From the UHGV virus genome UHGV-0072595: 18,059 nucleotides of DNA. One strand, given 5' to 3'. Under the pieces are notes generated by a model that did no database searches, had not been told where the DNA came from, and was given only the letters and a program-made list of their open reading frames with translations. Shown here piece after piece: positions 7,686-16,768 of the stretch. The position numbers were made by a program, and so were the translations under genes. Source of the stretch: a virus. How positions within the stretch are numbered: position 1 is the first letter of the stretch; every line of letters begins with the position of its first letter.

Positions 7686-7764
7686 ATCAAATTAAACCAC
7701 ACCTATGGTGTATGCATTTATTTGCATACATTCAATCAATTGTTATCTAAGGAAATACTTACAT

Positions 7765-8043
7765 ATGCAACTTACAAGTACTCGCAAGAAAGCGAATGCA
7801 ATTACAAGCAACATCCTGAATCGAATTGCTGTACGTGGTCAGCGAAAGGTTGCCGACGTGTTAGGGATTAATGAATCGCAAATTTCGCGATGGAAAGACA
7901 GCTTTATCCCAAAGATGGCCATGCTTCTGGCTGTGCTGGAATGGGGTGTTGAAGACGAGGAGTTGGCGGAACTGGCTAAGCAAGTAGCCAGAATGCTGAC
8001 AAAAGAAAAAGCCCCGAAGAACGGCGAATTCTTCGAGGCCTGA
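7765..8043 (+). CDS. cII: cII-like transcriptional activator (about 92 aa; non-lambda allele)
   Basis: Track ORF 7705..8043 trimmed to ATG 7765 (AAGGA SD; same leader as lambda cII). Shares ...[20 protein letters not shown]... with lambda cII but differs elsewhere. Confidence 0.8.
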
Positions 8044-14926: not shown

Positions 14927-15111
14927 ACGCCACAATTCAAACGATACCAGAGCTTCTTATCCAGACACGAGGCAATCAGACCGAAGTGGCTAGGATGCTT
15001 TCCTGCGCAAGAGGAACAGTGCTCAAGTACAACCGAGACAGCAAAGGCGATCGTCACGTAATAGTTAACGGCGTCCTGATGGTCAAACAGGGAAAGAGGG
15101 GAAGACGATGA
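14923..15111 (+). CDS. ninH: NinH-like protein (62 aa)
   Basis: Track ORF; ...GNQTEVARMLSCARGTVLKY... matches the NinH HTH-like core; ATGA overlaps on both sides. Confidence 0.75.
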   Translation: MNATIQTIPELLIQTRGNQTEVARMLSCARGTVLKYNRDSKGDRHVIVNGVLMVKQGKRGRR

Positions 15112-15626
15112 GCATAAGAGAACTAAACCTCACCAAAGAACAGCATGAGTGGCTGAATGGCTGGCTTGAACTGTGGGGCGCATGGGTTTATTCAGGTCGT
15201 CTGGAAAAGCGCATGAGCAGCGTAATAGCGAAGTTCATGGAGAGCGTAGAGCCGGGAAGAGTTATGACAAGGCCAATGTGTAATGATGATGATGGAATGT
15301 TGATTTCTCAGGTCGTCGATTCCGTCATGTACATTGACAAGAAAGCCTTTGGCATCCTCCTCAGCTACTACGCTCATGGTTCATCTAAGCGAGCAATTGC
15401 ATCCTACTATCACGCGACTGCAAAGCCACGCAAGATGTGTGGACGTGGTGGCGAGGGATGGAGAAAACCTTCACTGGCAACCTGTAGAAACGAAATTGAC
15501 GACATCCTGAAAGCGTCATTATTTGTTTTGTACCAACCAATGCAAAATGCTTTCAAAATGCGTAAACGTGTTGAGAAAGTTAAGCATGTTGCTGTTAAAA
15601 ACCTTGACATGCAATTAGCCATTTAG
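15108..15626 (+). CDS. Q: Late antiterminator Q (non-lambda type, 172 aa)
   Basis: Track ORF; last gene of the nin operon, immediately upstream of a pR'-like promoter, terminator hairpin and the lysis cassette; pattern WGAW...P.C.DDD resembles phage 21/82-type Q proteins (from memory). Confidence 0.7.
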   Translation: MSIRELNLTKEQHEWLNGWLELWGAWVYSGRLEKRMSSVIAKFMESVEPGRVMTRPMCNDDDGMLISQVVDSVMYIDKKAFGILLSYYAHGSSKRAIASYYHATAKPRKMCGRGGEGWRKPSLATCRNEIDDILKASLFVLYQPMQNAFKMRKRVEKVKHVAVKNLDMQLAI

Positions 15627-15633
15627 CCATAAT
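15604..15633 (+). promoter_or_regulatory. Candidate late promoter pR' (-35 TTGACA 15604-15609, 18-bp spacer, -10 CATAAT 15628-15633), overlapping the Q stop
   Basis: Hexamers read directly; position relative to Q and downstream terminator fits the lambdoid late-control architecture. Confidence 0.5.
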
Positions 15634-15644
15634 TAGAGGGTAAG

Positions 15645-15689
15645 CTGCCGTTAGTGACTCTTAAGTTGCAACGGTGGCTTTTTTTATTT
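15645..15689 (+). terminator. Terminator-like imperfect hairpin followed by a U-rich tract (TTTTTTTATTT), candidate tR'
   Basis: ctgccgtt...aacggtggc stem with G-U pairs and an extended inner stem, then U-tract, directly downstream of the putative pR'. Confidence 0.45.
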
Positions 15690-15764
15690 GGGTCAGTCGT
15701 ATAAAGGTCATTACGGAAGGCTGTTAACCTTCTTATCGTGGTTCGAGTCCACGCTGTCCCGCCA
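15690..15764 (+). tRNA. tRNA-Asn(GUU)-like gene with encoded CCA; atypical (one U-U mismatch in the acceptor stem, weak D-stem)
   Basis: Manual fold: acceptor GGGTCAG/CTGTCCC, anticodon stem GAAGG/CCTTC with loop CTGTTAA, T-arm CGTGG-TTCGAGT-CCACG, discriminator G, CCA. Confidence 0.5.
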
Positions 15765-15769
15765 AATAT

Positions 15770-15845
15770 GCTGGTTTAGCTCCAATGGTAGAGCAGTCGC
15801 CTTGTAAGCGAATGGGTAGCGGTTCAAGTCCGTTAACCAGCACCA
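15770..15845 (+). tRNA. tRNA-Thr(UGU) gene with encoded CCA
   Basis: Manual fold: perfect 7-bp acceptor GCTGGTT/AACCAGC, D-arm GCTC-CAATGGTA-GAGC, anticodon loop CTTGTAA, T-arm AGCGG-TTCAAGT-CCGTT, discriminator A, CCA. Confidence 0.65.
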
Positions 15846-16089
15846 TAACTGAGCCGTAGCCACTGGCTATCCTGAATTCATCAGTGATAGTTACGCTGCG
15901 GCCTTCTACACATGACCTTCGTGAAAGCGGGTGGCATGAGGTTGCGCTAACAACCTCCTGCCGTTTTGCCCGTGCATATCGGTCACGAACAAATCTGATT
16001 ACTAAACACAGTAGCCTGGATTTGTTCTATCAGTAATCGACCTTATTCCTAATTAAATAGAGCAAATCCCCTCAATGAAGGGGTAGAGC

Positions 16090-16293
16090 ATGTACCGTAT
16101 GGACAAAATCAGAGAATGGTTCAGTTACAGCTTCGGAGGACTGACTGCGATGGGTGGCATTCTCTCCCTGAATGACTGGGCTGTCATCATTGGTATTCTT
16201 TGTACTGTCGGCACATTTGGCATCAACTGGTACTACAAGCGCAAAGAGCGCGAGGACAGATTGAATGGCAATGTCACCGGCACTACGAAATAG
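16090..16293 (+). CDS. S: Holin, class II/pinholin-like, with dual-start motif (M-Y-R-M) predicting antiholin and holin forms
   Basis: Track [70 protein letters not shown]; two TM segments, charged C-terminus; immediately upstream of and overlapping the endolysin gene. Confidence 0.75.
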
Positions 16294-16768
16294 CGTAATA
16301 GCGGCGATAAGTGGCGGGGCTATTGCTATAGCATCTGTGTTAATCACTGGACCAAGTGGTAACGATGGCCTGGAAGGTGTCAGCTACATACCATACAAAG
16401 ATATTGTTGGTGTATGGACTGTATGCCACGGACACACCGGAAAAGACATCATGCTCGGTAAAACGTATACCAAAGCAGAATGCAAAGCCCTCCTGAATAA
16501 AGACCTTGCCACGGTCGCCAGACAAATTAACCCGTACATCAAAGTCGATATACCGGAAACAATGCGCGGCGCTCTTTACTCATTCGTTTACAACGTGGGT
16601 GCTGGCAATTTCAGAACATCGACGCTTCTTCGCAAAATAAACCAGGGCGATATCAAAGGCGCATGTGATCAGCTACGTCGCTGGACATATGCTGGCGGTA
16701 AGCAATGGAAAGGTCTCATGACTCGTCGTGAGATTGAGCGTGAAGTCTGTTTGTGGGGGAAACAATGA
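16265..16768 (+). CDS. R: SAR endolysin (T4-lysozyme-fold muramidase with N-terminal signal-arrest-release domain; phage 21 R-like)
   Basis: Track ORF; Gly/Ala-rich weakly hydrophobic N-terminus [21 protein letters not shown] followed by the lysozyme core; matches my recollection of R21. Confidence 0.85.

What the first reader, a model, noticed from the sequence alone, without database searches (positions are those of the whole stretch)
15604..15689. Compact Q-dependent late control unit: pR'-like promoter overlapping the Q stop, followed within about 50 nt by a terminator hairpin
Seen in sequence: near-consensus -35 TTGACA (15604-15609) and -10 CATAAT (15628-15633) at 18-bp spacing, then an extended hairpin and a U-tract (15645-15689) abutting the first tRNA. 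Inference: this is the pR'/qut/tR' module on which Q acts; the terminator is much closer to the promoter than I remember for lambda, so the tRNAs and lysis genes would be strictly Q-gated.
Basis: partly seen in the sequence, partly recalled or inferred. Interest (0 to 1): 0.4.

Follow-up and report, generated by a model that had tools for sequence, protein, structure and literature searches.

The report
Phage 21-type Q late-gene switch

Summary
TTGACA (15604-15609), an 18-bp spacer and CATAAT (15628-15633) form the only 11/12 sigma-70 match in the window. A 17-pair hairpin (15642-15680, -20.2 kcal/mol, z -5.4) with a T-run abuts tRNA-Asn (15690).

The upstream ORF is a Q21-family antiterminator (PF06530), 85% identical to phage 21 Q, whose structure is solved. 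From the pause element to the tRNA the DNA is identical to phage 21, whose pR', QBE, start site, pause element and terminator are annotated from experiments. Sf6, HK75 and phage L carry the same module at 97-99% identity, annotated as pR'/qut/tR'.

Two tandem Q-binding repeats (AATTAGCC/ATTTAGCC, 15613-15628) lie between -35 and -10, and a -10-like pause element TAAGCT lies at +2..+7. A terminator close to the promoter is a family trait, not a peculiarity. "Strictly Q-gated" is untested.

One by-product: across about 130 distinct family members, Q residues 95, 124 and 128 track bases 6, 3-4 and 2 of the repeat. This predicts that this Q and Q21 are heterospecific.

The parts
15108..15626 (+). 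Q antiterminator gene (172 aa), Q21 family. Its last 23 nt overlap the -35 and both QBE repeats.
   Evidence: Pfam PF06530, E 1e-25. 85% identity to phage 21 Q over 162 aa. Matches PDB 6JNX/6P18 (Q21) at E 1e-91.
15604..15609 (+). pR' -35 hexamer TTGACA
   Evidence: Promoter scan. Aligns with the annotated phage 21 pR' -35.
15613..15620 (+). Upstream Q-binding subsite (QBEu) AATTAGCC, core TTAGCC at 15615-15620
   Evidence: Aligns with phage 21 QBEu ATTGAGCA. The same repeat is proposed as the QBE in phage L. Family survey.
15621..15628 (+). Downstream Q-binding subsite (QBEd) ATTTAGCC, core TTAGCC at 15623-15628. It contains the Q stop codon TAG at 15624-15626.
   Evidence: Aligns with phage 21 QBEd AATGAGCA. 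The distance from the core's end to the pause element is the same as in phage 21.
15628..15633 (+). pR' -10 hexamer CATAAT, sharing its first base with QBEd
   Evidence: Promoter scan, 11/12. Aligns with the annotated phage 21 -10 AACACT.
15640..15640 (+). Inferred transcription start (+1, G)
   Evidence: By homology only. It is the base that aligns with the annotated phage 21 start site, 7 nt after the -10 and 1 nt before the pause element. This position is a purine in 127 of 132 family members.
15641..15647 (+). Sigma-dependent pause element (SDPE) TAAGCTG, -10-like, at +2..+8
   Evidence: Identical to the annotated phage 21 SDPE. Of the positions my locator did not score on, G5 is nearly invariant family-wide (127/132). 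T2, A3 and T7 are invariant, but the locator favoured them.
15647..15657 (+). Conserved initially transcribed stretch GCCGTTAGTGA (+8..+18). Presumed pause-positioning DNA that doubles as the 5' arm of the terminator stem.
   Evidence: G8 C9 C10 G11 T12 and T16 G17 are conserved in about 110-127 of 132 distinct family members, whatever the terminator type. The role in pausing is inferred.
15642..15680 (+). tR' terminator hairpin (17 pairs, one bulge), +3..+41
   Evidence: -20.2 kcal/mol, z -5.4. The consensus structure has 16 pairs, 5 with compensatory changes. Identical to the phage 21 terminator annotated from PMID 1704887.
15679..15689 (+). Terminator T-tract TTTTTTTATTT. Its first two T pair at the base of the stem. 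Predicted RNA 3' ends fall at about +46..+50.
   Evidence: Sequence. A 50-nt short RNA is annotated at the homologous place in phage 21 record AJ237660.
15690..15764 (+). tRNA-Asn (GTT), first gene of the late transcript
   Evidence: ARAGORN. Rfam tRNA, 55 bits. Also present in phage 21 and Sf6.
15770..15845 (+). tRNA-Thr (TGT)
   Evidence: ARAGORN. Rfam tRNA, 61.5 bits.
16090..16293 (+). Holin, first protein-coding late gene. It is followed by lysozyme at 16265-16768.
   Evidence: Pfam PF16080 and PF00959.

Best explanation
This is a phage 21-type Q-dependent late-gene control cassette of a lambdoid, P22-like prophage. The proposed mechanism has four steps.

1. Initiation. Host sigma-70 RNA polymerase starts at pR' (-35 at 15604-9, -10 at 15628-33), at about 15640.

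2. Pausing. Sigma region 2 re-binds the -10-like element TAAGCT at +2..+7, and the polymerase pauses after making about 16-18 nt of RNA.

3. Without Q. The polymerase resumes, transcribes the hairpin (+3..+41) and the U-tract, and releases a 46-50-nt RNA. The tRNA genes and the lysis and virion genes stay largely silent.

4. With Q. Two Q protomers bind the tandem repeats AATTAGCC/ATTTAGCC (15613-15628) lying between -35 and -10. From there the upstream protomer inserts a ring ('nozzle') into the RNA-exit channel of the paused polymerase. The nascent RNA threads through it, so the terminator hairpin cannot form at the polymerase. Transcription then runs through tR' into tRNA-Asn, tRNA-Thr, holin, lysozyme and beyond.

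Shown here: the sequence elements, the fold, the family membership of Q, and base-level homology to the characterised phage 21 cassette. Inferred: the start site, the pause, termination efficiency and Q dependence in this particular element.

Because this Q has R95 and N128 where Q21 has H95 and R128, and its repeats read TTAGCC instead of TGAGCA, it most likely recognises only its own type of QBE.
For: The Q ORF is PF06530, 85% identical to Q21, and matches the Q21 crystal and cryo-EM entries at E 1e-91.

Alignment A1 shows an identical -35. It shows two 8-bp direct repeats at the same place as the phage 21 QBE. It also shows 100% identity from TAAGCT to the tRNA. The phage 21 record OL657228 annotates the -35, QBEu/QBEd, -10, start site, SDPE and terminator, with literature references.

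Sf6, HK75 and phage L annotate the same module at 97-99% identity as pR', qut and tR'. The phage L paper names AATTATCC/ATTTAGCC as the probable QBE and places the first tRNA 46 bp after the start.

The hairpin is stable (z -5.4) and is supported by 5 compensatory pairs.

The mechanism comes from Q21 structural work: two protomers on a direct-repeat QBE, a ring in the RNA-exit channel, and base contacts by H95, A124, R127, R128 and R113.

In 131 distinct family members, R128 goes with G at repeat position 2 (70/72) and non-R128 with non-G (59/59). R95 goes with C at position 6 (71/78) and non-R95 with A (52/53).
Against: Nothing in the sequence contradicts the model. No experiment exists for this exact element, and the start site, pause and termination are transferred from phage 21.

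The -10 (CATAAT) is much closer to consensus than phage 21's AACACT, and the spacer is 18 bp rather than 17 bp. Promoter strength and basal read-through may therefore differ.

In vitro, the phage 21 terminator gave only about 2-fold Q stimulation without GreB. BTP1 lysogen cultures appear to express the homologous tRNAs highly. Gating may therefore be leaky, or may reflect spontaneous induction.
Confidence: 0.93

Rival explanations
1. Same cassette, but the terminator is a leaky attenuator rather than a strict gate. The near-consensus constitutive promoter plus partial read-through would supply the two stable tRNAs in the lysogen, while Q is needed only for the long late mRNA.
For: The -10 is 5/6 and the -35 is 6/6, stronger than in phage 21. 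In BTP1 (about 96% identical over 15108-16100 and 97.9% over 15560-15700), the two tRNA genes were set aside from a list of prophage genes with TPM >100 in lysogen cultures. Q21 gave only about 2-fold signal over background without GreB in vitro. [quoted passage not shown]
Against: The hairpin is long and stable and has a 7-T tract, the features of an efficient intrinsic terminator. BTP1 has an unusually high spontaneous induction rate, which could explain the tRNA signal. No other + strand promoter of at least 9/12 lies between the terminator and the tRNAs.
Confidence: 0.2
2. The short terminated transcript (about 46-50 nt) is itself a functional small RNA in lysogens, like StxS made from pR'-tR' of Shiga-toxin phages. 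On this view the compact unit is maintained partly for that product.
For: pR' promoters are constitutively active in lysogens. StxS shows that a pR'-tR' by-product can be an Hfq-binding regulator, and short RNAs from phage 21 pR' are mentioned there. The leader is 100% conserved between phage 21 and this window, although the neighbouring QBE diverged.
Against: Almost the whole RNA (+3..+41) is locked in one hairpin, leaving only 2 unpaired 5' nt and the U-tail, so there is no obvious seed. No Rfam family matches. The conserved bases +2..+17 are equally conserved in relatives whose terminator lies elsewhere, which points to a DNA-level pause function. In other relatives the hairpin sequence covaries rather than being fixed.
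Confidence: 0.05
3. The promoter-like hexamers and the hairpin are chance features. On this view the real late promoter lies elsewhere, for example downstream of the terminator as one HK629 annotation places it.
For: An 11/12 match arises by chance in about 27% of shuffled windows. The HK629 record puts a 'putative pR'' after the terminator.
Against: The site is homologous base for base to the annotated and experimentally studied phage 21 pR'. The -35 / two repeats / -10 / TAAGCT layout recurs in 131 distinct family members with fixed QBE-to-pause spacing. The repeats also co-vary with the DNA-contacting residues of Q.
Confidence: 0.01

Closest known systems
Phage 21 late regulatory region (Q21, pR'21, QBE, SDPE, tR'21; GenBank OL657228 and AJ237660; structures 6JNX, 6P18-6P1C)
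   Same: Same Q family, 85% identical and nearly identical over residues 1-94. The -35 is identical. There are two 8-bp direct repeats between -35 and -10, and the repeat-to-pause-element spacing is the same. The pause element, terminator hairpin, U-tract and following tRNA-Asn/tRNA-Thr are identical.
   Different: The repeat core is TTAGCC here and TGAGCA in phage 21. Q has R95 and N128 instead of H95 and R128, plus other changes in the loop at 103-119. The -10 is CATAAT rather than AACACT. One extra base lies between the -35 and the first repeat (18-bp vs 17-bp spacer). Q is 10 residues longer, so its stop codon lies inside QBEd instead of upstream of the -35.
Sf6 / HK75 / phage L / ST64T / BTP1-type late control region (the same subtype as this window)
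   Same: 97-99% DNA identity over 15560-15700, with the same TTAGCC-type (or TTATCC/TTAGCC) repeats, the same -10 and the same terminator. They are annotated as pR', qut site and tR' in Sf6 and HK75. In the phage L paper the QBE is described as probably having a different specificity from phage 21.
   Different: There are only point differences, such as A/G at 15601 and 15638 and T7 vs T6 in the U-tract. HK75-type relatives lack the tRNA genes after the U-tract. Phage L has a tRNA annotated as Leu in place of tRNA-Thr.
Lambda pR'-qut-tR' (6S RNA) with lambda Q
   Same: Same logic. The promoter is constitutive, the Q-binding element lies between -35 and -10, a sigma-dependent promoter-proximal pause follows, and a terminator precedes the lysis genes. 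Antitermination also works through a nozzle in the RNA-exit channel.
   Different: Lambda Q is a different, non-homologous family (PF03589). It binds as a monomer to a non-repeat site and needs NusA. From my own knowledge, the lambda leader is about 194 nt. This window's Q does not match PF03589.
StxS small RNA from pR'-tR' of Shiga-toxin phages
   Same: It is also a short RNA produced by constitutive pR' transcription ending at tR' just downstream of a Q gene.
   Different: The Stx phage pR' and tR' are 258 nt apart, and the RNA is processed to a 74-nt Hfq-binding sRNA. Here the whole leader is about 46-50 nt and almost entirely one hairpin.

Membership tests
Q21-type Q-dependent late regulatory cassette (Q gene, pR', QBE, SDPE, tR', late genes) | Antiterminator of the Q21 family (Pfam PF06530) encoded immediately upstream | tested here: met
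   PF06530, E 1.1e-25, 90 bits against a cut-off of 26. 85% identity to Q21. PDB 6JNX/6P18 at E 1e-91.
Q21-type Q-dependent late regulatory cassette (Q gene, pR', QBE, SDPE, tR', late genes) | Sigma-70 promoter at or just after the 3' end of Q | tested here: met
   TTGACA-18-CATAAT, 11/12, the only such match in the window. It aligns with the annotated phage 21 pR'.
Q21-type Q-dependent late regulatory cassette (Q gene, pR', QBE, SDPE, tR', late genes) | QBE made of two tandem direct 8-bp repeats between the -35 and -10 | tested here: met
   AATTAGCC/ATTTAGCC at 15613-15628 occupy the position of ATTGAGCA/AATGAGCA in phage 21. The sequence differs from phage 21 but matches the changed contact residues. 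Actual binding was not tested.
Q21-type Q-dependent late regulatory cassette (Q gene, pR', QBE, SDPE, tR', late genes) | -10-like sigma-dependent pause element in the initially transcribed region, at fixed distance from the QBE | tested here: met
   TAAGCT at 15641-15646 is identical to phage 21 and begins 13 nt after the last base of the QBEd core, the same offset as in phage 21. Pausing itself was not tested.
Q21-type Q-dependent late regulatory cassette (Q gene, pR', QBE, SDPE, tR', late genes) | Intrinsic terminator between the pause site and the late genes | tested here: met
   The hairpin is -20.2 kcal/mol with z -5.4 and a T7 tract. It shows covariation and is identical to the phage 21 terminator annotated from PMID 1704887.
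Q21-type Q-dependent late regulatory cassette (Q gene, pR', QBE, SDPE, tR', late genes) | Q-dependent read-through of the terminator, and a pause at about +16 to +18 | not testable with these tools
   This needs in vitro transcription or in vivo reporter assays. It has been shown for phage 21 only.
Q21-type Q-dependent late regulatory cassette (Q gene, pR', QBE, SDPE, tR', late genes) | Lysis and virion genes downstream on the same strand | tested here: met
   Holin PF16080 at 16090-16293 and lysozyme PF00959 at 16265-16768.
Lambda-type Q cassette (lambda Q, PF03589) | Q protein of family PF03589 binding a single non-repeat QBE | tested here: not met
   Only PF06530 and DUF1133 are hit, and the site is a direct repeat. 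Lambda Q and Q21 are non-homologous.
pR'-derived regulatory sRNA (StxS-like) | Hfq-binding, trans-acting seed region in the terminated leader | not testable with these tools
   The fold leaves only 2 unpaired 5' nt plus the U-tail, and there is no Rfam match. No binding data exist.

The most novel reading that the evidence does not exclude
Across the Q21 family there seems to be a simple, modular protein-DNA recognition code, and this window carries one of its alleles (R95/A124/N128 with TTAGCC).
- Residue 128 sets repeat base 2: R goes with G, and N, K or S with T.
- Residue 95 sets base 6: R goes with C, and H, Y or L with A.
- Residue 124 sets bases 3-4: E (with K128) goes with TTACCC, and R goes with TGGACA.

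All four 95 x 128 combinations occur in nature with the predicted repeats. This implies at least five or six mutually heterospecific Q/QBE pairs built on one scaffold, with an invariant pause element and fixed spacing. The phage L paper already noted that L and 21 probably differ in specificity. In the few papers I read I did not find a family-wide code described.
Probability: 0.45. Interest if true: 0.4.

Novelty: already known. Interest (0 to 1): 0.15.

Why it matters
For annotating this window, the result fixes where late transcription starts. It shows that the two tRNAs and the lysis genes belong to the Q-controlled late operon. It also shows that the 3' end of the Q gene doubles as promoter and Q-binding site. 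None of this changes current understanding, because the module is the textbook phage 21 cassette and near-identical copies are already annotated.

The modest added value is comparative. The family keeps the pause element, the +8..+17 stretch and the repeat-to-pause spacing fixed. It varies the repeat sequence in step with three DNA-contacting residues. That gives a ready set of natural, probably orthogonal Q/QBE pairs, which could be tested and used as antitermination switches.

Tried and rejected
- The simple terminator scan did not report the hairpin, because of its loop and bulge rules. Folding did.
- Rfam at permissive E-values found only the two tRNAs and one chance hit. There is no described RNA family for the leader.
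- Look-ups of the primary papers by PubMed id (31455742 and 1704887) failed because they are not held. I used the bioRxiv version of Yin et al., Shi et al. 2019, and the GenBank annotations instead. The +18 pause position of phage 21 therefore rests on my own knowledge, not on a text I read.
- The first viral-contig scan returned only 98-99% identical copies. It was useful for what follows the terminator but not for diversity, so four further scans with divergent queries were needed.
- My automatic assignment of the repeat register is off by one or two bases in some K128-type and a few other loci. The listing shows the true cores, and the contingency counts are slightly pessimistic for that reason.
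- I considered chance and a late promoter lying elsewhere, as in the HK629 annotation, and rejected both on comparative grounds.
- I considered an sRNA role for the terminated leader and found no support for it.

Full report
**What is there**

The window around the finding reads, on the + strand:
- the end of a 172-codon ORF (15108-15626)
- TTGACA (15604-15609)
- an 18-bp spacer
- CATAAT (15628-15633)
- seven bases
- TAAGCT (15641-15646)
- a long inverted repeat
- TTTTTTTATTT (15679-15689)
- tRNA-Asn (15690-15764) and tRNA-Thr (15770-15845)
- after about 245 nt, a holin and a lysozyme gene

The promoter scan reports the pair of hexamers as an 11/12 match. My count over the whole window finds it to be the only 11/12 match on either strand. 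Shuffled windows give 0.33 such matches on average, so the hexamers alone prove nothing.

The RNA from 15640 to 15689 folds into a 17-pair hairpin with one bulge (15642-15680). Its energy is -20.2 kcal/mol, z = -5.4, and none of 200 shuffles folds as well.

**What it is**

The ORF is a Q21-family antiterminator. It hits Pfam PF06530 at E 1e-25. It is 85% identical to phage 21 Q over all 162 residues of the latter. It matches the Q21 crystal and cryo-EM entries 6JNX and 6P18 at E 1e-91. The genes before it are RusA and NinH, the usual lambdoid nin region.

Megablast of 15100-16100 finds 182 phage records. The best are E. coli phage vB_EcoP-720R6 (98.5%), Sf6 (98.1%), Salmonella phages of the ST64T/L/BTP1 group (about 96%) and HK75 (97%).

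The Sf6 record annotates exactly this stretch as follows:
- 'promoter, nearly identical to phage 21 late promoter; pR''
- 'Sf6 qut site; putative target of gene 59'
- 'putative late mRNA leader terminator; similar to phage 21 late terminator; tR''
- both tRNAs as 'similar to phage 21'

HK75 annotates pR' and tR' at the same places. Phage L annotates the terminator and tRNA-Asn.

The complete phage 21 record OL657228 carries the fullest annotation, with literature references. It marks the -35, QBEu ATTGAGCA and QBEd AATGAGCA, the -10, the transcription start, the sigma-dependent pause element, the terminator (PMID 1704887) and tRNA-Asn. An older phage 21 record marks a 50-nt short RNA from this promoter.

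**Mapping onto the window**

I aligned the window with phage 21, Sf6, HK75 and L and read the phage 21 sequence directly. This gives the following map.

| Element | Window | Phage 21 |
|---|---|---|
| -35 | TTGACA, 15604-15609 | identical |
| QBEu | AATTAGCC, 15613-15620 | ATTGAGCA |
| QBEd | ATTTAGCC, 15621-15628 | AATGAGCA |
| -10 | CATAAT, 15628-15633 | AACACT |
| Start site | G at 15640 (aligned base) | annotated start |
| Pause element to tRNA | TAAGCTG onward, 15641-15700 | identical at every base |

The window has one extra base between the -35 and the first repeat, hence the 18-bp rather than 17-bp spacer. The distance from the end of the downstream repeat to the pause element is unchanged.

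The window's Q is ten residues longer than Q21. Its stop codon (15624-15626) therefore lies inside QBEd, whereas in phage 21 the stop precedes the -35.

With +1 at 15640, the hairpin occupies +3..+41 and the T-run +40..+46. The expected terminated RNA is 46-50 nt. This agrees with the phage L paper's remark that the first tRNA begins 46 bp after the putative late start.

**How it works**

The mechanism is taken from work on phage 21.
1. RNA polymerase with sigma-70 starts at pR'.
2. Sigma region 2 re-binds the -10-like element in the first transcribed bases and pauses the enzyme.
3. Two Q protomers sit on the direct-repeat QBE.
4. The upstream protomer forms a ring inside the RNA-exit channel through which the RNA must thread. 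Pause and terminator hairpins then cannot form at the polymerase.
5. Q travels with the enzyme.

Without Q, the enzyme terminates at tR'.

In this window every sequence requirement for that pathway is present and correctly spaced. The start site, the pause, the termination efficiency and Q dependence are inferred by homology, not shown. My confidence in this reading is 0.93.

**Is the compactness unusual?**

No. I collected 44 diverse loci from bacterial genomes and several hundred from viral contigs. In the 44 genome loci plus phage 21 and HK629, I located the first stable hairpin followed by a T-run. The T-run starts at one of three distances:
- +39/+40 in the window, phage 21 and a dozen diverse relatives (Pantoea, Erwinia, Cedecea, Rosenbergiella, Izhakiella, Edwardsiella)
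- +52 to +74 in a second group (Yersinia, Providencia, Morganella, Proteus)
- +98 to +114 in a third group

Short leaders are thus a family trait.

Within the compact group the hairpin is supported by covariation. The consensus structure has 16 pairs, and 5 of them keep pairing through changes on both sides. One example is G11-C33 becoming U-A.

A position-by-position count over 132 distinct sequences gave the following:
- T2, A3 and T7 are invariant, although my locator favoured these positions.
- Independently of the locator, G5, G8, C9, C10, G11, T12, T16 and G17 are conserved in 109-127 of 132 sequences.
- This holds whether or not these bases are part of a terminator stem.

I infer that +8..+17 is constrained at the DNA level by pause positioning. 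In the compact type the terminator simply uses this constrained stretch as its 5' arm. That is an inference, not a result.

**The Q-binding repeats differ from phage 21, in step with the protein**

Shi et al. report the following for Q21:
- H95, A124, R127 and R128 contact bases of the TGAGCA core.
- R113 contacts the minor groove.
- S93, K94 and T125 contact phosphates.

The window's Q keeps S93, K94, R113, A124, T125 and R127, but has R95 and N128. Its repeats read TTAGCC.

The phage L paper already made this point for L against 21 and concluded that different specificities are 'not surprising'. This too is therefore known for the subtype.

Going further, I tabulated 131 distinct combinations of Q contact residues and promoter.

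| Q residue | Repeat base | Count |
|---|---|---|
| R128 | G at base 2 | 70 of 72 |
| N/K/S128 | non-G at base 2 (T once register slips are allowed for) | 59 of 59 |
| R95 | C at base 6 | 71 of 78 (most exceptions are register errors of my script, plus locus L009) |
| H/Y/L95 | A at base 6 | 52 of 53 |
| E124 with K128 | TTACCC | |
| R124 | TGGACA | |

All four combinations of the 95 and 128 states occur with the predicted cores:
- R/N with TTAGCC
- L/N with TTAGCA
- R/R with TGAGCC
- H, Y or L/R with TGAGCA

The sequences are related, so the Fisher P values (1e-35 and 1e-27) overstate independence. The pattern is nevertheless clean and fits the structure. It predicts that this Q and Q21 do not cross-activate.

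**Is expression 'strictly Q-gated'?**

This cannot be tested here. For gating:
- The terminator is strong.
- No other + strand promoter-like site of at least 9/12 lies between it and the tRNAs.

Against strictness:
- The promoter is closer to consensus than phage 21's.
- Q21 raised read-through only about 2-fold without GreB in vitro.
- In BTP1 lysogen cultures the two homologous tRNA genes had to be excluded from a list of prophage genes with TPM >100. BTP1's high spontaneous induction may explain that.
- The phage L authors say it is unknown whether the tRNAs are cut from the late mRNA or have their own promoter.

I give a leaky-attenuator variant 0.2.

**Other rivals**

A regulatory role for the terminated RNA, by analogy with StxS, is unlikely (0.05):
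- The RNA is almost entirely one hairpin.
- It matches no Rfam family.

Chance is excluded by the comparative data.

**Verdict**

It is the phage 21-type Q cassette in its Sf6/L subtype, annotated in several near-identical phages. Interest is low (0.15). The family-wide residue-to-base correspondence is the only part that may go beyond the literature I could read.

Noticed in passing
window 15613-15628 and Q residues 95/124/128 (codons at 15390-15392, 15477-15479, 15489-15491); loci L006-L406: Across 131 distinct Q21-family loci, the QBE repeat core tracks three DNA-contacting residues. R128 goes with G at base 2, and N/K/S128 with T. R95 goes with C at base 6, and H/Y/L95 with A. E124 with K128 goes with TTACCC, and R124 with TGGACA. 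All four 95 x 128 combinations occur with the predicted cores.
   Followed up: yes
window 15686-15700; loci L050-L129 and others: A mosaic junction lies at the end of the terminator U-tract. Among loci with the window's Q type (R95/N128), 53 continue into tRNA-Asn (GGGTCAGTCG). Another 58 continue into unrelated sequence without tRNAs (GCACAACAGG, as in HK75).
   Followed up: partly
L130 and L131 (PhiR12_2, HK629) 520-650, compared with window 15560-15700: These phages share the window's Q, QBE and -10. Homology stops right after the -10 (window 15633). They have a different pause element (TATGCT, same spacing), a different leader, and a separate terminator whose T-run starts at +54. The HK629 record places its 'putative pR'' downstream of that terminator, which looks like a mis-annotation.
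   Followed up: partly
window 15420-15433, minus strand: TTGCGTGGCTTTGC matches the CII-binding pattern TTGYN6TTGY, at the position inside Q where the phage 21 record annotates the antisense promoter paQ and its CII site. The pattern alone is not rarer than chance (4 matches against 5.2 expected), so only the homologous position supports it.
   Followed up: partly
window 15647-15657 (+8..+18): GCCGT at +8..+12 and TG at +16/+17 are conserved in about 110-127 of 132 distinct family leaders. This includes leaders whose terminator lies 20-70 nt further downstream. That suggests a DNA-level pause-positioning signal which the compact terminator re-uses as its 5' arm.
   Followed up: partly
window 16068-16083: A short G+C-rich inverted repeat (CCCCTCAATGAAGGGG) lies directly upstream of the holin start at 16090, and a second in-frame ATG lies at 16099. 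Sf6 annotates dual-start holin and antiholin genes at the homologous place.
   Followed up: no
window 7774-7811, minus strand: Two further TTGYN6TTGY matches lie close together inside the + strand ORF 7705-8043. I did not identify that ORF or the immunity region, so what these sites are is unknown. The pattern is not rarer than chance in this window.
   Followed up: no
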